Origin: a virus
Taxonomy: Duplodnaviria; Heunggongvirae; Uroviricota; Caudoviricetes
DNA length: 10,684 nucleotides
Reading direction: 5' to 3' (one strand)
Virus record (IMG/VR): IMGVR_UViG_2671180643_000008
Of this stretch, positions 2,269-10,684 are shown one piece after another. Within the stretch, counting starts at the first letter, position 1; each line of letters starts with the position of its first letter. The notes under the pieces are model-generated. The model ran no database searches. It was not told where the DNA came from and saw only the letters and a program-made list of their open reading frames with translations. A program made the translations under genes and the position numbers.

Positions 2269-2280
2269 GGGCGGCGACCT
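2269..2280. other. cosN cohesive-end site (12-nt GGGCGGCGACCT); cosQ expected just upstream (about 2230-2268)
   Basis: GGGCGGCGACCT followed by CGCGGGTTTTCGCTATTTATGAAAATTTTCCGG matches the first 45 nt of the lambda genome as I recall them. The upstream ...GGTCCTTTCCGGCGATCCGACAGGTTACG resembles the lambda right end. Lies immediately upstream of the terminase genes. Confidence 0.8.
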
Positions 2281-2314
2281 CGCGGGTTTTCGCTATTTAT
2301 GAAAATTTTCCGGG

Positions 2315-2416
2315 ATCCATGTCCGGTTTCTCTTCAAGTTAACTATATGAAAAATATAAAAACAGGTCTTCTGTGAACCGGACATGAACAAAAAACAGAC
2401 ATGTAAACCGGACATG
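2315..2416. repeat. cosB-like region: three copies of AAACCGGACATG (one inverted, two direct) flanking an AT-rich putative IHF bend site
   Basis: Copy A is inverted (CATGTCCGGTT, 2318-2328); copy B is 2376-2386 and copy C is 2406-2416 (AACCGGACATG). The AT-rich segment 2335-2365 between A and B parallels the lambda R3-I1-R2-R1 layout. Located between cosN and the small-terminase start. Confidence 0.45.
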
Positions 2417-2463
2417 ACCGGTTTTGTTGTGATTGTGAGGTGAGAGTTTTTGCGAGGTGAGGA

Positions 2464-2973
2464 GTGGCTACGCAGACTGAAGTTGCCAGGCATTTAAGTC
2501 TGACCGATCGCCAGCTTCGCAGATTGCAGAAATTGCCGGGTGCCCCGATATCAAATAAGCGAGGGCAACTGGATCTGGATGCCTGGCGCGATTTTTACAT
2601 ATCGTATCTGAGGAGAAGTAAAAACGATGTGCCTGATGGCGATAGCGAAGACGACTATGAGGAGAAATTGCTTATTGCCAGATGGGAACTGACAGCAGAA
2701 CAGGCTGTTACACAGCAGTTAAAAAATGAGGTGTCAAAAGGAAAACTTATTGACACCGGGTTCTGTATTTTTGCCCTCAGTAAGCTGGCAATGGCGTTAT
2801 CCAGTACGCTTGATTCCATCCCTTTATCCATGCAGCGACAGTTTCCTGATTTAACACCGCGCCATCTTGACCATCTGAAAACCCTTATTGCTAAGGGGGC
2901 AAATCAGTGTGCGCGGGCAGGGGATAAATTACCGGATTTACTCGATGAATATATCAGAGCAACAACTGAATAA
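2464..2973 (+). CDS. nu1: Terminase small subunit (gpNu1 family)
   Basis: The C-terminal two-thirds (...TGFCIFALSKLAMALSSTLDSIPLSMQRQFPDLTPRHLDHLK...LPDLLDEYI) is strongly similar to lambda gpNu1 as recalled; the N-terminal HTH region (MATQTEVARHLSLTDRQLRRL...) is divergent. GTG start at 2464 follows an in-frame TGA at 2458-2460 and an AGG-rich SD. The 3' end overlaps the A start by 29 nt. Confidence 0.85.
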   Translation: MATQTEVARHLSLTDRQLRRLQKLPGAPISNKRGQLDLDAWRDFYISYLRRSKNDVPDGDSEDDYEEKLLIARWELTAEQAVTQQLKNEVSKGKLIDTGFCIFALSKLAMALSSTLDSIPLSMQRQFPDLTPRHLDHLKTLIAKGANQCARAGDKLPDLLDEYIRATTE

Positions 2974-4874
2974 TATGATGGCTGCCGTTTCGGTTGCGCT
3001 GCAGCCTCTGGTCAGGGTTGTACCAATGACGGCAGTTGAATGGGCTGATCAAAATTATTATCTGCCTAAAGAATCCTCATACGGTGAGGGCGAATGGAAA
3101 ACGCTGCCATTCCAGATCGCCATCATGAACAGCATGGGGAATGATCAGATCCGCACTGTTAATCTGATTAAATCTGCCCGTGTTGGCTATACAAAGATGT
3201 TGCTGGGGGGTGGTCGGGTATTTTATTGAGCATAAATCCCGAAACAGTCTGCTTTTTCAGCCCACGGATTCTGCCGCTGAAGATTTTATGAAGTCTCACG
3301 TGGAGGCGACGATTCGGAACGTGCCATGCCTGAAAGACCTTTCCCCATGGCTGGGGCGTAAACATCGTGACAATACTCTCACGCTGAAACGCTTTTCATC
3401 GGGCGTCGGTTTCTGGTGCCTGGGCGGCGCTGCCGCCAAAAACTACCGTGAAAAATCCGTGGACGTGGTCTGCTATGACGAACTTTCCTCGTTCGAGCCG
3501 GATGTCGAAAAAGAGGGCTCGCCAACCCTGCTGGGGGATAAGCGTATTGAGGGGTCGGTGTGGCCAAAATCCATTCGCGGCTCGACGCCTAAAATCAAAG
3601 GCACCTGCCAGATCGAAAAAGCCGCTAACGAGTCGGCGCATTTTATGCGTTTTTATGTGCCCTGCCCGCACTGTGGGGAGGAGCAGTATCTGAAATTTGG
3701 CGATGAGTCCACGCCTTTTGGGCTTAAATGGGAGAAGGACAGCCCTGAAAGTGTTTTCTACCTCTGTGAACATCATGGCTGCGTGATCCATCAGTCTGAA
3801 CTGGACCAGAGCAACGGGCGGTGGATCTGTGAAAACACGGGCATGTGGACCCGTGACGGTCTGACGTTTTTCAGCGCCCGGGGTGATGAAATTCCGCCGC
3901 CGCGCTCCATCACGTTCCATATCTGGACGGCGTACAGTCCGTTCACCACCTGGGTACAGATTGTCTATGACTGGCTGGATGTACTGAAAGATCCCAACGG
4001 CCTGAAAACCTTTGTGAACACCACGCTGGGCGAGACCTGGGAAGAGGCCGTGGGCGAAAAACTCGATCACCAGGTACTGATGGATAAGGTGGTGCGTTAC
4101 ACGGCGGCGGTGCCTGCCCGGGTGGTTTATCTGACGGCGGGCATTGACTCGCAGCGAAACCGTTTTGAGATGTATGTCTGGGGATGGGCTCCGGGAGAGG
4201 AAGCCTTTCTGGTGGATAAAATCATCATTATGGGGCGTCCTGATGAGGAAGAGACGCTGTTACGTGTGGATGCGGCGATCAACAAAAAATACCGCCATGC
4301 GGATGGCACCGAAATGACTATTTCCCGTGTCTGCTGGGACACCGGGGGGATCGATGGTGAAATTGTTTATCAGAGATCAAAAAAACACGGTGTTTTCCGG
4401 GTGCTGCCGGTAAAAGGCGCATCTGTCTATGGCAAGCCGGTGATCACCATGCCAAAAACCCGCAATCAGCGGGGCGTGTATCTGTGTGAAGTGGGAACGG
4501 ACACCGCAAAAGAAATTCTCTATGCCCGTATGAAAGCCGATCCCTCGCCTGCGGATGAAGCCACGTCGTATGCCATCCGTTTTCCTGATGATCCGGAGAT
4601 TTTTTCGCAGACAGAGGCGCAGCAACTGGTGGCGGAAGAGCTGGTGGAGAAGTGGGAAAAAGGAAAGATGCGTCTGCTGTGGGATAACAAAAAGCGGCGT
4701 AACGAAGCGCTGGACTGCCTGGTGTATGCCTACGCGGCATTACGTGTGTCCGTGCAACGCTGGCAGCTTGATCTGGCTGTACTGGCAAAATCCCGGGAAG
4801 AAGAGACGACCCGGCCAACCCTGAAAGAACTGGCAGCGAAGCTGTCCGGAGGAGTGAATGGTTACAGTCGCTGA
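2945..4874 (+). pseudogene. A: Terminase large subunit (gpA family), interrupted by a +1 frameshift at a G6 run (3205-3210)
   Basis: ATG 2945 gives MNISEQQLNNMM...TAVEWADQNYYLPKESSYGEGEWKTLPFQIAIMNSMG...VGYTKMLLGGGRVFY and stops at 3227-3229. The remaining roughly 550 aa (WGVVGYFIEHKSRN...CPHCGEEQYLKFGD... to TGA 4872-4874) are in the next frame. Both parts are colinear with lambda gpA as recalled. Removing one G from GGGGGG restores K-M-L-L-G-V-V-G-Y-F-I-E-H-K. Confidence 0.8.
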
Positions 4875-5064
4875 ACTGCAGGCGCTGCGTCAGGCGCGCC
4901 TTGATTTATTAACCGGTAAACGGGTGGTGTCTGTCCAGAAAGATGGACGAAGAATTGAATATACGGCGGCCTCTCTGGATGATCTTAACCGGGCGATCAA
5001 TGATGCGGAGTCAGTGCTGGGGACAACAAGCCGCCGCCGTCGTCCGCTGGGAGTGAGGTTATGA
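4858..5064 (+). CDS. W: Head-tail joining / head completion protein gpW
   Basis: The 68-aa product MVTVAELQALRQARLDLLTGKRVVSVQKDGRRIEYTAASLDDL... resembles lambda gpW (recalled motif TGKRV-x-VQKDGRR). GGAGGA SD. Overlaps the A stop and the B start (ATGA). Confidence 0.8.
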   Translation: MVTVAELQALRQARLDLLTGKRVVSVQKDGRRIEYTAASLDDLNRAINDAESVLGTTSRRRRPLGVRL

Positions 5065-6653
5065 AACGAACGCCTGTCCTGATTGATGTGAACGGTGTTC
5101 CGCTTCGGGAGAGCCTCAGCTACAACGGGGGCGGTGCAGGATTTGGCGGGCAAATGGCGGAGTGGTTGCCACCGGCGCAGAGTGCCGATACGGCCCTGTT
5201 GCCCGCGTTGCGTCTGGGCAATGCCCGTGCAGATGATCTGGTGCGCAATAACGGGATAGCGGCCAATGCGGTGGCACTGCATAAGGATCATATTGTCGGG
5301 CATATGTTTCTGATCAGCTACCGTCCGAACTGGCGCTGGCTGGGGATGCGGGAGACTGCAGCAAAAAGTTTTGTCGATGAGGTGGAGGCGGCCTGGTCGG
5401 AATACGCCGAAGGGATGTCTGGCGAGATCGACGTGGAAGGGAAACGCACGTTTACGGAATTTATCCGTGAAGGTGTGGGCGTTCATGCGTTTAACGGCGA
5501 AATCTTTGTGCAGCCGGTCTGGGATACGGAGAGCACGCAACTGTTTCGTACGCGTTTTAAAGCCGTGAGTCCGAAACGGGTAGACACGCCAGGACACGGT
5601 ATGGGGAACCGTTTTCTGCGGGCCGGGGTGGAGGTCGATCGATATGGCCGTGCCGTTGCGTACCATATCTGTGAGGATGATTTTCCGTTCTCTGGTAGTG
5701 GACGATGGGAACGGATCCCGCGTGAACTACCCACCGGGCGTCCGGCCATGCTGCATATTTTCGAGCCGGTGGAGGACGGGCAGACCCGTGGGGCTAATCA
5801 GTTTTACAGCGTCATGGAACGGCTGAAGATGCTGGATTCCCTGCAGGCAACACAGCTTCAGTCGGCCATTGTGAAAGCCATGTATGCAGCGACGATTGAA
5901 AGTGAACTTGATACCGAAAAGGCCTTTGAATATATCGCCGGTGCGCCGCAGGGGCAGAAGGATAATCCGCTTATTAATATTCTGGAGAAGTTCTCCACCT
6001 GGTATGACACGAATAACGTGACGCTGGGCGGTGTCAAAATTCCGCACCTTTTCCCCGGTGATGATCTGAAACTGCAGACTGCGCAGGATTCAGACAATGG
6101 ATTTTCGGCGCTTGAACAGGCGCTGCTGCGGTATATCGCCGCCGGTCTTGGCGTTTCCTACGAACAGTTGTCCCGGGATTACTCGAAGGTCAGTTATTCA
6201 AGTGCCCGCGCCTCCGCCAATGAGTCGTGGCGCTATTTTATGGGACGACGAAAATTTATTGCGTCCCGGCTGGCCACGCAGATGTTTTCCTGCTGGCTGG
6301 AAGAGGCACTTCTTCGGGGGATTATTCGTCCGCCACGGGCGCGTTTTGATTTTTATCAGGCGCGATCAGCCTGGTCACGGGCTGAGTGGATTGGAGCCGG
6401 AAGAATGGCCATTGACGGGCTCAAGGAAGTCCAGGAATCAGTGATGCGCATTGAGGCCGGACTGAGCACGTATGAGAAAGAGCTGGCGCTGATGGGCGAG
6501 GATTATCAGGACATTTTCCGCCAGCAGGTCAGGGAATCTGCTGAGCGACAAAAAGCCGGACTCTCACGTCCGGTGTGGATAGCGCAGGCGTATGAGCAGC
6601 AGATAGCGGAGAGTCGCAGGCCGGAAGAGGAGACAACACCACGTGAGACGTAA
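5061..6653 (+). CDS. B: Portal protein (gpB family)
   Basis: The 530-aa product shows long near-identical blocks to lambda gpB as recalled (ARADDLVRNNG, FEPVEDGQTRGANQFYSVME, LQSAIVKAMYAATIESELDT, LLRYIAAGLGVSYEQLSRDY, GRMAIDGLKEVQE). Synteny A-W-B. Confidence 0.9.
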   Translation: MKRTPVLIDVNGVPLRESLSYNGGGAGFGGQMAEWLPPAQSADTALLPALRLGNARADDLVRNNGIAANAVALHKDHIVGHMFLISYRPNWRWLGMRETAAKSFVDEVEAAWSEYAEGMSGEIDVEGKRTFTEFIREGVGVHAFNGEIFVQPVWDTESTQLFRTRFKAVSPKRVDTPGHGMGNRFLRAGVEVDRYGRAVAYHICEDDFPFSGSGRWERIPRELPTGRPAMLHIFEPVEDGQTRGANQFYSVMERLKMLDSLQATQLQSAIVKAMYAATIESELDTEKAFEYIAGAPQGQKDNPLINILEKFSTWYDTNNVTLGGVKIPHLFPGDDLKLQTAQDSDNGFSALEQALLRYIAAGLGVSYEQLSRDYSKVSYSSARASANESWRYFMGRRKFIASRLATQMFSCWLEEALLRGIIRPPRARFDFYQARSAWSRAEWIGAGRMAIDGLKEVQESVMRIEAGLSTYEKELALMGEDYQDIFRQQVRESAERQKAGLSRPVWIAQAYEQQIAESRRPEEETTPRET

Positions 6654-8148
6654 TCTTTCACACATTATTGCCGCAGCATTCAATGAACCGCTGCTTCTGG
6701 AGCCCGCCTATGCGCGGGTTTTCTTTTGCGCGCTCGGGCGCGAGATGGGGGCATCAAGTCTTTCGGTACCACAACAGCAGGTACAGTTTGATGCTCCCGG
6801 AATGCTGGCTGAAACGGACGAGTACATGGCCGGAGGTAAACGACCGGCCCGTGTTTACCGGGTGGTGAACGGTATTGCTGTACTGCCGGTGACCGGCACG
6901 CTGGTGCACCGGCTGGGGGGTATGCGGCCATTTTCCGGAATGACAGGCTATGACGGCATTGTCGCCTGTCTTCAGCAGGCAATGGCGGATAGCCAGGTGC
7001 GGGGCGTACTGCTGGACATTGACAGTCCGGGCGGGCAGGCCGCCGGCGCGTTTGACTGCGCTGACATGATTTACCGCCTCCGTCAGCAGAAGCCGGTCTG
7101 GGCACTGTGCAATGACACGGCCTGCTCTGCAGCCATGCTGCTGGCGTCGGCCTGCTCCCGACGGCTGGTTACCCAGACATCCCGTATCGGCTCCATTGGC
7201 GTGATGATGAGCCATGTCAGCTATGCCGGTCATCTGGCGCAGGCCGGTGTTGATATCACGCTGATTTACTCAGGGGCGCACAAGGTGGATGGCAATCAGT
7301 TTGAAGCGTTGCCGGCAGAGGTTCGCCAGGACATGCAACAGCGCATTGATGCGGCGCGCCGGATGTTTGCTGAAAAAGTGGCGATGTATACCGGTCTGTC
7401 TGTTGATGCTGTCACGGGAACAGAGGCCGCCGTTTTTGAAGGTCAGTCCGGCATTGAGGCCGGGCTGGCGGATGAATTAATCAATGCGTCGGATGCCATC
7501 AGTGTGATGGCCACGGCGCTGAACAGTAATGTCAGAGGAGGCACTATGCCGCAATTAACTGCAACGGAAGCCGCCGCGCAGGAGAACCAGCGAGTGATGG
7601 GGATCCTGACATGCCAGGAAGCGAAAGGACGTGAACAGCTTGCCACGATGCTGGCAGGACAACAGGGCATGAGCGTTGAACAGGCCCGGGCGATTCTGGC
7701 CGCGGCGGCACCACAGCAGCCGGTGGCATCCGCGCAGAGTGAAGCCGATCGCATTATGGCGTGTGAAGAAGCGAAAGGTCGTGAACAACTGGCGGCAACG
7801 CTGGCGGCGATGCCGGAGATGACGGTGGAAAAAGCCCGCCCGATCCTGGCTGCTTCACCGCAGGCGGATGCCGGACCCTCACTCCGTGATCAGATCATGG
7901 CACTGGATGAGGCAAAAGGGGCTGAGGCGCAGGCTGAACAGCTGGCTGCCTGCCCGGGAATGACTGTGGAGAGCGCCCGGGCTGTGCTGGCTGCGGGATC
8001 AGGTAAGGCAGAACCGGTCTCTGCATCCACAACCGCCATGTTTGAACGCATCATGGCGAACCATTCACCGGCAGCGGTACAGGGTGGCGTGCCACAGACG
8101 TCAGCAGACGGTGATGCGGACGTGAAAATGCTCATGGCCATGCCATGA
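6643..8148 (+). CDS. C: Head maturation protease / minor capsid protein C (S49 ClpP-like family)
   Basis: GTG start overlaps the B stop (GTGAGACGTAA). The N-terminus MRRNLSHIIAAAFNEPLLLEPAYARVFFCAL matches lambda gpC as recalled. Also conserved: GIAVLPVTGTLV, GAFDCADMI, KPVWAL, LLASACSRRLVTQTSRIGSIGVMM and ITLIYSGAHKVDGN. Confidence 0.85.
   Translation: MRRNLSHIIAAAFNEPLLLEPAYARVFFCALGREMGASSLSVPQQQVQFDAPGMLAETDEYMAGGKRPARVYRVVNGIAVLPVTGTLVHRLGGMRPFSGMTGYDGIVACLQQAMADSQVRGVLLDIDSPGGQAAGAFDCADMIYRLRQQKPVWALCNDTACSAAMLLASACSRRLVTQTSRIGSIGVMMSHVSYAGHLAQAGVDITLIYSGAHKVDGNQFEALPAEVRQDMQQRIDAARRMFAEKVAMYTGLSVDAVTGTEAAVFEGQSGIEAGLADELINASDAISVMATALNSNVRGGTMPQLTATEAAAQENQRVMGILTCQEAKGREQLATMLAGQQGMSVEQARAILAAAAPQQPVASAQSEADRIMACEEAKGREQLAATLAAMPEMTVEKARPILAASPQADAGPSLRDQIMALDEAKGAEAQAEQLAACPGMTVESARAVLAAGSGKAEPVSASTTAMFERIMANHSPAAVQGGVPQTSADGDADVKMLMAMP
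7546..8148 (+). CDS. nu3: Putative Nu3-like scaffolding protein from an in-frame internal start within C
   Basis: GAGGAGG (7535-7541) precedes in-frame ATG 7546, giving a 200-aa product co-terminal with C. This mirrors the lambda C/Nu3 arrangement, where Nu3 is the C-terminal roughly 200 aa of the C frame. The internal start is inferred, not demonstrated. Confidence 0.35.
   Translation: MPQLTATEAAAQENQRVMGILTCQEAKGREQLATMLAGQQGMSVEQARAILAAAAPQQPVASAQSEADRIMACEEAKGREQLAATLAAMPEMTVEKARPILAASPQADAGPSLRDQIMALDEAKGAEAQAEQLAACPGMTVESARAVLAAGSGKAEPVSASTTAMFERIMANHSPAAVQGGVPQTSADGDADVKMLMAMP
7591..8060 (+). repeat. Three diverged tandem copies of a roughly 47-50-aa module in the C/Nu3 C-terminal region
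   Basis: Protein repeats: RVMGILTCQEAKGREQLATMLAGQQGMSVEQARAILAAAAP... / RIMACEEAKGREQLAATLAAMPEMTVEKARPILAASPQ... / QIMALDEAKGAEAQAEQLAACPGMTVESARAVLAAGSG..., plus a partial fourth start (ERIMANH). Consensus IM-x3-EAKG-x-E-x6-LA-x2-P-x-MTVE-x-AR-x-ILAA. The nucleotide copies are diverged, so the duplication is old. Confidence 0.5.
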
Positions 8149-8184
8149 AGCCAGTGCTGACCATCAACAGGAGGTTTTTACAAT

Positions 8185-8532
8185 ATGGTGACGAAAACTA
8201 TCACTGAACAGCGTGCGGAAGTACGTATTTTTGCCGGTAATGATCCGGCTCATACCGCCACAGGCAGCAGCGGGATTTCCTCGGCAACACCGGCACTGAC
8301 GCCCCTGATGCTGGATGAGGCCACCGGGAAACTGGTGGTCTGGGACGGACAAAAAGCCGGTAGTGCGGTTGGCATACTGGTACTGCCGCTTGAAGGCACA
8401 GAGACGGCGCTGACCTATTACAAGTCGGGGACCTTTGCGACGGAGGCAATCCGCTGGCCTGACAGTGTGGATGAACACAAAAAGGCAAATGCCTTTGCCG
8501 GCAGTGCCCTGAGTCACGCGGCGCTGCCGTAA
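8185..8532 (+). CDS. D: Head decoration protein (gpD family)
   Basis: The 115-aa product carries the motifs DPAHTAT, TPLMLD, KLVVWDG, AVGIL, YYKSGTF and AFAG shared with lambda gpD as recalled. AGGAGG SD 10 nt before ATG 8185. Confidence 0.85.
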   Translation: MVTKTITEQRAEVRIFAGNDPAHTATGSSGISSATPALTPLMLDEATGKLVVWDGQKAGSAVGILVLPLEGTETALTYYKSGTFATEAIRWPDSVDEHKKANAFAGSALSHAALP

Positions 8533-8540
8533 CACGTTAT

Positions 8541-8560
8541 CAGGCCACCGCGGTGGCCTG
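8541..8560. repeat. Perfect 20-bp palindrome in the D-E intergenic spacer
   Basis: CAGGCCACCG|CGGTGGCCTG is its own reverse complement, 9 nt after the D stop and 29 nt before the E start. It can form a 10-bp hairpin with no loop or a cruciform. Confidence 0.6.
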
Positions 8561-8589
8561 ACTGATTTCTGAATGAAAGGAACTGATTT

Positions 8590-9618
8590 ATGGGATTGTT
8601 TACGACCCGCCAGTTACTCGGTTATACCGAACAAAAAGTGAAATTTCGTGCGCTGTTTCTGGAGCTGTTTTTCCGCCGTACGGTGAATTTCCATACCGAA
8701 GAGGTGATGCTGGACAAAATTACCGGAAAAACGCCGGTGGCGGCCTATGTCTCCCCGGTTGTTGAAGGAAAAGTGCTGCGTCATCGCGGTGGTGAAACCC
8801 GCGTGTTACGTCCGGGCTACGTCAAGCCGAAACACGAATTTAATTACCAGCAGGCGGTTGAGCGTCTTCCCGGTGAAGATCCGGCTCAACTGAACGACCC
8901 GGCCTACCGTCGTCTGCGTATCATCACCGATAACCTCAAACAGGAAGAGCATGCCATTGTCCAGGTGGAAGAAATGCAGGCGGTGAATGCCGTGCTGTAT
9001 GGCAAATACACCATGGAAGGGGATCAGTTTGATACTGTCGAGGTGGATTTTGGACGCTCTGAAGGAAATAACATTGAGCAGGCCGACGGTAAAAAATGGT
9101 CTGAGCAGGACCGTGATACGTTTGATCCGACGCATGATATTGACCTCTACTGCGATCAGGCCAGCGGTCTTGTGAATATTGCCATTATGGACGGTACTGT
9201 CTGGCGTCTGCTGAATGGTTTTAAGCTGTTCCGCGAAAAACTGGATACCCGTCGCGGCTCAAATTCACAACTCGAAACGGCAGTGAAAGACCTGGGGGCG
9301 GTGGTGTCTTTCAAAGGGTATTACGGCGATCTGGCCATTGTGGTGGCGAAAACGTCTTATGTGGCAGAGGACGGTACCGAAAAACGTTATCTGCCGGAGG
9401 GCACGCTGGTCCTGGGAAATACGGCTGCAGATGGGATCCGTTGTTACGGTGCCATTCAGGATGCGCAGGCGTTGTCCGAAGGTGTGGTGGCTTCTTCCCG
9501 TTACCCGAAACACTGGCTGACCGTGGGCGATCCGGCCCGTGAATTTACCATGACGCAGTCCGCACCGCTGATGGTGCTGCCGGATCCGGATGAGTTTGTG
9601 GTGGTACAGGTGAAATAA
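8590..9618 (+). CDS. E: Major capsid protein (gpE family)
   Basis: The 342-aa product shows extended identity blocks to lambda gpE as recalled (PGYVKPKHE, DPAYRR-RII, QVEEMQAV-AVL-GKYTM, KLDTRRGSNS-LETAVKDLG, REFTM-QSAPLM-L-DPDEFV). Synteny D-E-FI. Confidence 0.9.
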   Translation: MGLFTTRQLLGYTEQKVKFRALFLELFFRRTVNFHTEEVMLDKITGKTPVAAYVSPVVEGKVLRHRGGETRVLRPGYVKPKHEFNYQQAVERLPGEDPAQLNDPAYRRLRIITDNLKQEEHAIVQVEEMQAVNAVLYGKYTMEGDQFDTVEVDFGRSEGNNIEQADGKKWSEQDRDTFDPTHDIDLYCDQASGLVNIAIMDGTVWRLLNGFKLFREKLDTRRGSNSQLETAVKDLGAVVSFKGYYGDLAIVVAKTSYVAEDGTEKRYLPEGTLVLGNTAADGIRCYGAIQDAQALSEGVVASSRYPKHWLTVGDPAREFTMTQSAPLMVLPDPDEFVVVQVK

Positions 9619-9625
9619 TCCGTGA

Positions 9626-9656
9626 GCGGGGGCGAAATGCCCCCGTGTCTTTTTTC
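9626..9656 (+). terminator. Intrinsic-terminator-like hairpin immediately after the major capsid gene
   Basis: GCGGGGGC (9626-9633), loop GAAAT, GCCCCCG (9639-9645), then TGTC and TTTTTT (9650-9655). Located 8 nt after the E stop and 14 nt before the FI start. Confidence 0.5.
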
Positions 9657-9669
9657 ACAGGGGGATGAT

Positions 9670-10044
9670 ATGGCAACGAAAGAGCAAAATCTGAAACGGC
9701 TTGATGAACTGGCCCTGATTCTGGGGCGTGAGCCGGATATATCCGGGAGTGCCGCAGAGATAGCGCAGCGGGTGGCAGAATGGGAAGAGGAAATGCAGTC
9801 ATCCGGCGATGATGTACAGGTTATGAATATGGATATCCGGGAGAGGGAAAACGCGGCTCATGATGTTCGTGAGGAAACATCCGGCGCGTTAACGCGCATC
9901 AGAGTTCTGACCTGCCTCCATCTCTGTGGCGTTGATGGTGAAACGGGGGAATCCGTTGAGCTTGCGGATGTTGGTCGGGTGATTCTGATTATGTCCTCAG
10001 ATGCAAAAACACACGTTGATGGTGGAATGGCTGTTTATGCGTGA
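9670..10044 (+). CDS. FI: Probable gpFI-like DNA-packaging / head assembly protein
   Basis: A 124-aa acidic protein (MATKEQNLKRLDELALILGREPDISGSAAEIAQRVAEWEEEM...) in the FI position between E and FII. AGGGGGA SD 5 nt upstream. The stop overlaps the FII start (ATGCGTGA). The call rests mainly on synteny and size; sequence similarity to lambda FI is only loosely recalled. Confidence 0.6.
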   Translation: MATKEQNLKRLDELALILGREPDISGSAAEIAQRVAEWEEEMQSSGDDVQVMNMDIRERENAAHDVREETSGALTRIRVLTCLHLCGVDGETGESVELADVGRVILIMSSDAKTHVDGGMAVYA

Positions 10045-10390
10045 TTTTCAGAATGCCTTTGATGCCGCCCTTGCCGGGGTGGACAGTACGATTGTTGAAG
10101 TGATGGGCATCAGTGCGCAGTTCACCTCCGGTGCACAGCGTGGCGGCGAAGTTCAGGGGGTTTTTGACGATCCGGAGTCGCTGGGGTTTGCCGGTAGCGG
10201 GGTCCGTATTGAAGGAAGCTGCCCGTCATTATTTGTACGGACGGATACGGTTCGTGCTGTGCGGCGTGGTGACACGCTGACCATTAATGGTGAGACATTC
10301 TGGGTGGATCGTGTTTCTCCGGATGACGGGGGCAGTTGTTATCTCTGGCTCAACCGTGGGCAACCACCGGCAGTTAACCGGCGACGATAA
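10037..10390 (+). CDS. FII: Head-tail connector / head completion protein gpFII
   Basis: Translation MRDFQNAFDAALAGVDSTIVEVMGISAQFTSGAQRGGEVQGVFDDPESLGFAGSGVRIEGSCPSLFVRTDTVRAVRRGDTLTINGETFWVDRVSPDDGGSCYLWLNRGQPPAVNRRR is 117 aa and closely matches lambda gpFII as recalled (GVFDDPE, PSLFVRTD, RRGDTLTI, FWVDRVSPDDGGSC, PPAVNRRR). Confidence 0.8.
   Translation: MRDFQNAFDAALAGVDSTIVEVMGISAQFTSGAQRGGEVQGVFDDPESLGFAGSGVRIEGSCPSLFVRTDTVRAVRRGDTLTINGETFWVDRVSPDDGGSCYLWLNRGQPPAVNRRR

Positions 10391-10404: not shown

Positions 10405-10684
<280 letters not shown>

What the first reader, a model, noticed from the sequence alone, without database searches (positions are those of the whole stretch)
3195..3230. 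Terminase large-subunit gene split by a single extra G in a G6 homopolymer
The gpA-like frame starting at ATG 2945 terminates at TGA 3227-3229 (...KMLLGGGRVFY*). The remaining roughly 550 codons continue in the +1 frame to 4874. Removing one G from GGGGGG (3205-3210) yields ...KMLLGVVGYFIEHK..., colinear with the gpA family. There is no slippery heptamer or known recoding precedent for terminases. So this is either a genuine inactivating mutation, meaning the prophage cannot package DNA, or a homopolymer-length sequencing error.
Basis: partly seen in the sequence, partly recalled or inferred. Interest (0 to 1): 0.6.

Follow-up and report, generated by a model that had tools for sequence, protein, structure and literature searches.

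The report
Frameshifted prophage terminase gene (pseudogene)
One extra G really does break the DNA-packaging (terminase large subunit) gene of a lambda-like prophage in a small group of E. coli isolates, which is an ordinary case of a resident virus decaying.

Summary
The run at 3205-3210 is G6. The gpA-like frame from ATG 2945 stops at TGA 3227-3229 after 94 codons. The rest of the gene (Gly88 onward, 3207-4874) continues in the +1 frame.

Deleting one G gives a 642-aa protein. It is 638/642 identical to an intact E. coli prophage terminase and 67% identical to lambda gpA, with no gap at the site.

The window is a whole contig, CYBI01000078.1 of draft E. coli assembly GCA_001283725.1. All close relatives carry G5: about 2,000 places in 5,426 complete E. 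coli genomes and at least 120 IMG/VR contigs.

G6 is nonetheless not an assembly slip. Two other read sets with distinct SNP haplotypes carry it (GCA_001277675.1 and an independent Logan assembly of run ERR134521). The other 75 homopolymers of 5 nt or more in the window match those of relatives.

No recoding signal is present. The best reading is a real, inherited slippage mutation that makes the prophage unable to package its own DNA. cosN, Nu1 and eight head genes are intact, so a co-resident lambdoid prophage could package it in trans. This isolate also has an IS3-family insertion in tail gene Z.

Interest is low. In passing, I found that this G-rich spot loses frame repeatedly in other E. 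coli prophages.

The parts
2269..2280 (+). cosN, the 12-nt cohesive-end sequence GGGCGGCGACCT. The following 33 nt are also identical to lambda; the cosB region after that differs.
   Evidence: Exact match. Alignment with lambda 1-210 and with the E. coli relative. It lies 195 nt upstream of the Nu1 start; the lambda distance is 190 nt.
2464..2973 (+). Terminase small subunit (Nu1), intact, 169 aa.
   Evidence: Pfam Phage_Nu1 match. It is 169/169 identical to WP_000235436.1 of three other prophages.
2945..3229 (+). N-terminal fragment of the terminase large subunit (gpA type), 94 aa. Residues 1-88 are homologous. GGRVFY is out-of-frame read-through ending at TGA 3227-3229.
   Evidence: GpA_ATPase profile positions 4-45.
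3205..3210 (+). G6 run. Relatives have G5, so one G has been inserted.
   Evidence: The exact G6 context is absent from complete E. coli genomes, IMG/VR, metagenome contigs and GTDB representative genomes. The G5 context is in at least 120 IMG/VR contigs.
3207..4874 (+). Remainder of the large-subunit gene in the +1 frame (Gly88 to the stop). It holds the rest of the ATPase domain and the nuclease domain.
   Evidence: GpA_ATPase positions 45-247 and GpA_nuclease positions 3-286. The repaired protein is 638/642 identical to the L122 protein and 67% identical to lambda gpA.
4858..10390 (+). Intact head module: W 4858-5064, portal B 5061-6653, protease/scaffold C 6643-8148, D 8185-8532, major capsid E 8590-9618, FI 9670-10044, FII 10037-10390.
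   Evidence: Gene calls and Pfam families. Lengths equal those of the relative and there are no internal stops.
10405..10583 (+). First ~60 codons of minor tail gene Z, cut off by an insertion.
   Evidence: Pfam Minor_tail_Z on a 64-aa product. The gene is 177 aa and intact in L123. The sequences diverge after 10583.
10584..10684 (+). Left end of an IS3-family insertion sequence (TGTAGTGGCACAC...). The contig ends inside this repeat.
   Evidence: (thousands of places annotated as IS3 family transposase).

Best explanation
A replication-slippage insertion of one G (G5 to G6) occurred in the gpA-type terminase large-subunit gene of a lambdoid prophage. It has been inherited by a small clade of E. 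coli isolates.

Translation from ATG 2945 leaves the correct frame after Gly88 and stops at 3227-3229. The break comes just after the KSARVGYTK segment, which aligns with lambda gpA KSARVGYSK. From my own knowledge of the lambda literature, that is the Walker-A region of the packaging ATPase.

The 94-aa product keeps only the Nu1-binding N-terminus and the Walker-A segment. The rest of the ATPase domain and the whole nuclease domain are left untranslated. At best they could be made from an internal start without the N-terminus.

Shown: the lesion, its inheritance, and the intactness of the neighbouring genes. Inferred: the prophage cannot cut cos or package DNA with its own enzyme. Because cosN, Nu1 and the head genes are intact, a co-resident lambdoid prophage with the same Nu1/cos specificity could still package it. 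In the isolate that gave this window, an IS3-family insertion in tail gene Z is a second, later lesion. The element is a decaying prophage.
For: - **Lesion.**. Against the nearest genomes it is the only frame-breaking indel in 10.6 kb.
- **One gene.** The Pfam profile is contiguous at position 45 across the frame change. The repaired ORF is 638/642 identical to intact WP_101972865.1. It is 67% identical to lambda gpA over 639 aa with no gap at the site.
- **Derived state.** The homologous segment occurs at 2,023 places in 5,426 complete E. coli genomes, and none has G6. IMG/VR has 0 with G6 and at least 120 with G5.
- **Not an artefact.** The same 94-aa product and the same nucleotides occur in GCA_001277675.1 and in a Logan assembly of ERR134521. 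The three sequences differ from one another by 2-7 SNPs, so they come from different read sets. 75 of 76 homopolymers of 5 nt or more have the length seen in relatives. In contrast, assembly GCA_026134715.1 also shows G6 but has +1 errors in nearly every homopolymer and fragmented genes.
- **Relaxed constraint (one observation only).** One G6 carrier (L125) has A-to-V in the FHIWTAYSPF motif, which is invariant in the other 124 copies fetched.
- **Second lesion.** The IS3-family element in gene Z is present here and absent in L123.
- **Trans-packaging.** cosN is exact and Nu1 is identical to a widespread allele. Sp4 is packaged by the Sp14 terminase in O157 Sakai (PMC2669165).
- **Routine annotation.** RefSeq annotates frameshifts at this same site in other strains as pseudogenes.
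Against: - No reads could be inspected. Support for G6 rests on three consensus assemblies. At least two appear, from their accession prefixes, to come from one sequencing centre. The platform was not verified.
- Loss of packaging is inferred from homology with lambda gene A, not measured.
- Low-level frame restoration cannot be excluded. Routes include +1 slippage of tRNA-Gly on GGG-G, of tRNA-Phe on UUU-U at 3221-3224, or RNA polymerase slippage.
- Whether the same genome holds a helper terminase is unknown, because only this contig was available.
Confidence: 0.9

Rival explanations
1. Homopolymer-length sequencing or assembly error: the real genome has G5 and an intact terminase.
For: The site is a homopolymer. 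G6 is absent from all complete genomes, IMG/VR and metagenome contigs. An error-prone long-read assembly shows exactly this G6 as an artefact at two prophages.
Against: Three assemblies with different SNP haplotypes share G6, and one was built independently by Logan from raw reads. Only 1 of 76 homopolymers of 5 nt or more deviates from relatives. All 8 neighbouring head genes are intact. More than a thousand other assemblies with the identical flanks report G5, so the motif does not systematically cause an extra G.
Confidence: 0.05
2. Programmed recoding: a +1 ribosomal frameshift or transcriptional slippage at the G run produces full-length terminase, so the split is a regulatory feature.
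For: tRNA-Gly can re-pair perfectly one base downstream on GGG-G, and tRNA-Phe can do so on UUU-U (3221-3224). A shift anywhere between 3206 and 3226 would give a full-length protein differing by at most 4 residues (read from the sequence).
Against: The arrangement is not conserved: G5 and a single ORF occur in about 2,000 homologous places. There is no hungry or stop codon at the candidate P-site positions. The G-rich Shine-Dalgarno-like stretch lies about 10 nt upstream of UUU-U, not the 3 nt used in prfB (my own knowledge). The downstream RNA folds no better than shuffles, z = +0.45. There is no Rfam match. No terminase precedent turned up in the papers read.
Confidence: 0.02
3. Reversible on/off switch (contingency locus): the G run toggles between G5 and G6 to switch prophage packaging on and off.
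For: The same codons carry other length variants elsewhere. G4 is exact in 3 complete genomes. O157-type prophages have poly-G alleles: G8 in 34, G9 in 194 and G10 in 174 complete genomes.
Against: G6 interrupted by T is short for high-frequency slippage (my own knowledge of mismatch-repair-proficient E. coli). All three carriers have G6 despite 2-7 SNPs of divergence, so the state is stable. An IS then accumulated in gene Z, as expected for decay rather than switching.
Confidence: 0.03

Closest known systems
Phage lambda gpA (terminase large subunit; Pfam GpA_ATPase PF05876 + GpA_nuclease PF20454) and its phage 21 gp2 and E. coli prophage homologues
   Same: Same two domains in the same order, 67% identity to lambda gpA over 639 aa once one G is removed, and 99% identity to intact E. 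coli prophage copies. Same cos-Nu1-A-W-B-C-D-E-FI-FII context.
   Different: The reading frame is broken after residue 88, so no full-length protein is encoded.
Defective lambdoid prophages of E. coli O157:H7 Sakai (Sp4 and others; Asadulghani et al. 2009, PMC2669165)
   Same: A lambdoid prophage with a single lesion in the terminase module but an intact cos. Sp4 has no intact terminase, yet its DNA is packaged, most likely by the Sp14 terminase, which has the same cos and Nu1. The Nu1 protein here is identical to the allele found in O157-type prophages.
   Different: In Sp4 the lesion is an IS insertion in nu1. Here it is a 1-nt insertion in A. Helper-dependent packaging has not been shown for this element.
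RefSeq 'frameshifted' terminase pseudogenes at the same G-rich codons (e.g. NZ_CP028110.1 with G4; NZ_CP030767.1 with poly-G G10)
   Same: Same gene, same codons 87-92, and loss of frame by a change in G-run length. PGAP flags them as pseudogenes.
   Different: Different alleles: a -1 in G5, or a G8/G10 tract created by two T-to-G changes. The +1 (G6) allele of this window is not in any complete genome searched.

Membership tests
gpA-type terminase large subunit (lambda A) | N-terminal GpA_ATPase domain | tested here: met
   Profile positions 4-45 match in the frame of ATG 2945 and positions 45-247 match in the +1 frame.
gpA-type terminase large subunit (lambda A) | C-terminal GpA_nuclease domain | tested here: met
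   PF20454, E = 2.6e-71, profile positions 3-286 of 294.
gpA-type terminase large subunit (lambda A) | Colinear full-length alignment to lambda gpA | tested here: met
   After deleting one G: 425/639 identical, with no gap at the site. 638/642 identical to an intact prophage copy.
gpA-type terminase large subunit (lambda A) | One uninterrupted ORF encoding both domains (a functional gene) | tested here: not met
   Stop at 3227-3229 after 94 codons, with the remainder in the +1 frame. It is therefore a pseudogene of the family.
gpA-type terminase large subunit (lambda A) | Position directly after cos and Nu1 and before W and the portal gene | tested here: met
gpA-type terminase large subunit (lambda A) | cos cleavage and ATP-driven packaging activity | not testable with these tools
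   Needs induction or packaging assays.
Programmed frameshift / transcriptional slippage site | The shifted arrangement is conserved among homologues | tested here: not met
   The G6 context is in 0 complete E. coli genomes, 0 IMG/VR contigs and 0 metagenome contigs. G5 is in at least 120 IMG/VR contigs and about 2,000 genomic places.
Programmed frameshift / transcriptional slippage site | Stimulatory element (downstream structure, or a curated recoding RNA family) | tested here: not met
   Fold of 3211-3300 gives z = +0.45 against shuffles. No Rfam match in the window.
Homopolymer sequencing artefact | Not reproducible across independent read sets or assemblies | tested here: not met
   G6 is present in three distinct haplotypes from GCA_001283725.1, GCA_001277675.1 and Logan ERR134521.
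Homopolymer sequencing artefact | Many homopolymer-length discrepancies in the same assembly | tested here: not met
   1 of 76 runs of 5 nt or more differs from relatives. Compare GCA_026134715.1, where dozens differ.
Homopolymer sequencing artefact | Raw reads disagree with the consensus | not testable with these tools
   No read access.
Simple-sequence contingency (phase-variable) locus | Tract length varies among very close relatives | tested here: not met
   All three members of the G6 clade have G6. Length variation is seen only in the separate O157 poly-G allele.

The most novel reading that the evidence does not exclude
The G-rich codons 87-92 of lambdoid gpA (CT-GGGGG-TGGTC-GGG) may be a recurrent site where E. 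coli prophages lose, and perhaps regain, terminase function. The alleles are G6 here, G4 in other strains, and the G8/G9/G10/G11 tract of O157:H7 Sp4/Sp14-type prophages. On this reading, run-length changes would act as a heritable on/off switch for self-packaging. A lineage could then hold a prophage in a helper-dependent state, or the retained 94-aa Nu1-binding fragment could interfere with the terminases of related phages.
Probability: 0.05. Interest if true: 0.55.

Novelty: already known. Interest (0 to 1): 0.12.

Why it matters
It matters little beyond annotation. The two CDSs deposited for this contig (CTT21806.1-type 94 aa and CTT21844.1-type 528 aa) are one terminase pseudogene. The prophage should be scored as defective for autonomous packaging, but it may still be mobilisable by a helper.

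The finding adds one more example to the well-documented pool of defective lambdoid prophages in pathogenic E. coli. The side observation might deserve a population-level look: the same G-rich spot is hit repeatedly, and O157 prophages carry a length-variable poly-G tract there.

Tried and rejected
- **Exact-pattern scans for the G6 context** in GTDB representative genomes, IMG/VR and metagenome contigs all found nothing. The source was instead found by exact look-up of the truncated protein.
- **Second G6 allele.** It is protein P0002, which differs from the window's 94-aa product at two residues. It first looked like independent recurrence. Its assembly, GCA_026134715.1, has +1 errors in almost every homopolymer and fragmented genes, so it was rejected as evidence.
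- **Literature search** for the accessions (ERR134521, GCA_001283725, GCA_001277675, CYBI01, CXZX01) gave only irrelevant hits. The strain background and sequencing platform stay unverified.
- **PDB search** with the repaired protein found no solved structure by sequence. PMC9410871 also states that the lambda gpA structure is unknown. No structural mapping of the break was attempted.
- **Search for a paper quoting the Walker-A motif KSARVGYS** did not find the string. The placement of the break relative to Walker A rests on my own knowledge plus the alignment.
- **Recoding** was considered and rejected: no conservation, no structure, no Rfam family.
- **Helper terminase in the same genome** could not be tested, because only this contig is accessible.

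Full report
**1. The observation**

The window reads ...AAG ATG TTG CTG GGG GGT GGT CGG GTA TTT TAT TGA in the frame of ATG 2945. The six G occupy 3205-3210 and the stop is at 3227-3229. The product is 94 aa and ends ...KMLLGGGRVFY. The +1 frame is open from 3180 to 4874 and reads W-GVVGYFIEHK... from 3207 onward. Removing one G gives a single 642-codon ORF.

**2. One gene, two frames**

Pfam GpA_ATPase matches profile positions 4-45 in the 94-aa piece. It matches positions 45-247 in the +1 piece, followed by GpA_nuclease. The break is therefore exactly contiguous in the family model.

The repaired protein is 638/642 identical, without gaps, to the intact terminase WP_101972865.1 of E. coli 14EC007. 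It is 425/639 (67%) identical to lambda gpA, again with no gap at the site.

The break falls right after KSARVGYTK, which aligns with lambda KSARVGYSK. From my own knowledge of the lambda literature, that segment is the Walker-A region of the packaging ATPase. I could not find the motif string in the paper library. No solved structure matches by sequence. PMC9410871 says the gpA structure is unknown.

**3. Where the window comes from and what surrounds it**

An exact look-up of the truncated protein shows that the window is the entire contig CYBI01000078.1 of E. coli draft assembly GCA_001283725.1.

The region is a lambda-type late operon with these parts:
- the end of the lysozyme gene, Rz, and a PerC-family gene;
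- cosN (GGGCGGCGACCT, exact, at 2269-2280);
- Nu1, the broken A gene, W, portal, protease/scaffold, D, E, FI, FII and the start of Z.

Nu1 is 169/169 identical to the widespread WP_000235436.1. The eight head genes have the same lengths as in the closest complete genome and no internal stops.

**4. Ancestral state**

The best complete-genome matches are 98.4-98.7% identical over 10,583 bases. Against two of them, the extra G is the only frame-breaking indel.

The 76-nt segment around the site occurs at 2,023 places in 1,280 of 5,426 complete E. coli genomes, and none has the G6 context. IMG/VR has no G6 context but at least 120 contigs with G5. Metagenome contigs and GTDB representative genomes have none with G6. 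G5 is therefore ancestral and G6 is a rare derived state.

**5. Real mutation or sequencing error**

The same 94-aa product, encoded by the same nucleotides, is found on two other records:
- contig CXZX01000063.1 of GCA_001277675.1 (L123);
- a Logan assembly of run ERR134521 (L125).

The three sequences are not copies of each other. L123 differs from the window by 7 SNPs. L125 differs from the window by 2 SNPs and from L123 by 3. Three read sets, one assembled by an independent pipeline, therefore agree on G6.

Within the window, 76 homopolymers of 5 nt or more lie in the aligned part. Only the one at 3205 differs in length from the relatives.

A useful negative control turned up by chance. 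Assembly GCA_026134715.1 also has G6 here, at two prophages. But it has +1 insertions in nearly every run of four to five or more identical bases, and almost all its phage genes are fragmented. That is what the artefact looks like, and the window does not look like it.

One G6 carrier (L125) also has an A-to-V change in the FHIWTAYSPF motif, which is invariant in the 124 other copies I had fetched. This is a single observation. It fits relaxed constraint after inactivation.

I put the probability that G6 is real at about 0.9-0.95. I could not inspect reads, and I could not verify the sequencing platform or strain background (one search was a dead end).

**6. Recoding**

Full-length protein would need a +1 shift somewhere between 3206 and 3226. 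Perfect re-pairing is possible for tRNA-Gly on GGG-G and for tRNA-Phe on UUU-U (3221-3224).

However, several things argue against a programmed event:
- no slow or stop codon sits in the A site at those positions;
- the G-rich Shine-Dalgarno-like stretch is about 10 nt upstream of UUU-U, not the 3 nt seen in prfB (my own knowledge);
- the downstream RNA folds no better than shuffled sequence, z = +0.45;
- Rfam finds nothing;
- above all, the arrangement is not conserved.

Programmed recoding is rejected. Background-level leakiness cannot be excluded.

**7. Consequence**

These steps are inferred. Gene A is essential for cos cleavage and packaging in lambda (established knowledge). A product ending at residue 88 plus six wrong residues lacks most of the ATPase domain and the whole nuclease domain. 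Any internal re-start, such as ATG 3288 as called by the gene finder, would lack the N-terminus and the Walker-A segment. The prophage therefore cannot package itself.

Because cosN, Nu1 and the head genes are intact, packaging by a helper prophage with the same specificity is plausible. In O157 Sakai, Sp4 has no intact terminase, yet its DNA is packaged, most likely by the Sp14 terminase, which shares its cos and Nu1 (PMC2669165).

**8. A second lesion**

The last 101 bases of the window (10584-10684) are the left end of an IS3-family element present at thousands of places in E. coli. It interrupts tail gene Z after about 60 codons. In L123, which also carries G6, Z is intact at 177 aa.

The order of events is therefore the frameshift first and the IS insertion later, in this isolate's line. 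That is the pattern of a decaying prophage.

**9. Side observation: the site is a hot spot**

The protein search with the 94-aa fragment returned many other truncated N-terminal products that break at the same codons.
- In complete genomes, the G4 allele is exact in 3 records. RefSeq flags it as a 'frameshifted' pseudogene.
- O157:H7-type prophages carry a different allele in which two T-to-G changes turn GGGGGTGGTC into a pure G tract.
- G9 is in frame (VV becomes GG), occurs in Sakai Sp4 and EDL933, and is exact in 194 records.
- G8 is exact in 34 records and G10 in 174 records. Both are out of frame, and the G10 place inspected is flagged as 'frameshifted'.
- One strain can have G9 in one prophage and G8 or G10 in the other.
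- G8 is also seen in three Logan (public sequencing-run) assemblies.
- I did not resolve how much of this variation is real.

**10. Verdict**

The feature is a terminase pseudogene made by a one-base homopolymer insertion. It is inherited in a small clade and sits in a lambdoid prophage that is decaying but may still be mobilisable by a helper. This is an ordinary, well-known kind of event, so interest is low.

Noticed in passing
window 10584-10684 (junction at 10583/10584): The contig ends in the left end of an IS3-family insertion sequence that interrupts minor tail gene Z after about 60 codons. The other G6 isolate (L123) has an intact 177-aa Z, so this is a later, isolate-specific second lesion.
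   Followed up: yes
same codons as window 3203-3220, in L128-L140, L142 and complete O157:H7 genomes (e.g. NC_002695.2 at 1190258-1190377): O157:H7 Sp4/Sp14-type prophages have a pure poly-G tract here (CT-Gn-CGGG). Its length varies between genomes and between the two prophages of one genome. G9 (in frame) is exact in 194 complete records, G10 in 174 and G8 in 34. G11 and a G5-C allele (deletion of TGGT) appear in protein hits. Out-of-frame lengths are annotated as 'frameshifted'. Whether this is true phase-like variation or partly long-read error was not resolved.
   Followed up: partly
homologues of window 3205-3209: NZ_CP028110.1 at 1385054-1385127, NZ_CP024155.1, NZ_CP101310.1: The opposite slip (G5 to G4) at the same run is present in three complete genomes. 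At least one is flagged as a frameshifted pseudogene.
   Followed up: partly
proteins P0003, P0006, P0007, P0009, P0010, P0013, P0030: Many draft-assembly contigs end or begin exactly at this G run. Partial terminase products stop at ...KMLL...KMLLG or ...KMLLGV, and one starts GGGGGYFIEHK. Assemblies therefore often break here, presumably because co-resident prophage copies differ at this spot.
   Followed up: no
L126 and L127 (GCA_026134715.1, JAOWNY010000040.1): This 4.9-Mb contig carries systematic +1 insertions in most runs of four to five or more identical bases, so nearly every phage gene is fragmented. Its 94-aa terminase fragment is the representative of the 90% protein cluster that also holds the window's product.
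   Followed up: yes
window 2281-2463: cosN plus the next 33 nt are identical to lambda. The cosB region is unrelated to lambda's and contains three copies of CCGGACATG (read from the sequence). These may be the Nu1-binding sites of this specificity group.
   Followed up: no
L125 position 1378 (= window 3931): One G6 carrier has a C-to-T change that turns the otherwise invariant FHIWTAYSPF motif of gpA into FHIWTVYSPF. The motif is unchanged in the other 124 fetched copies.
   Followed up: partly
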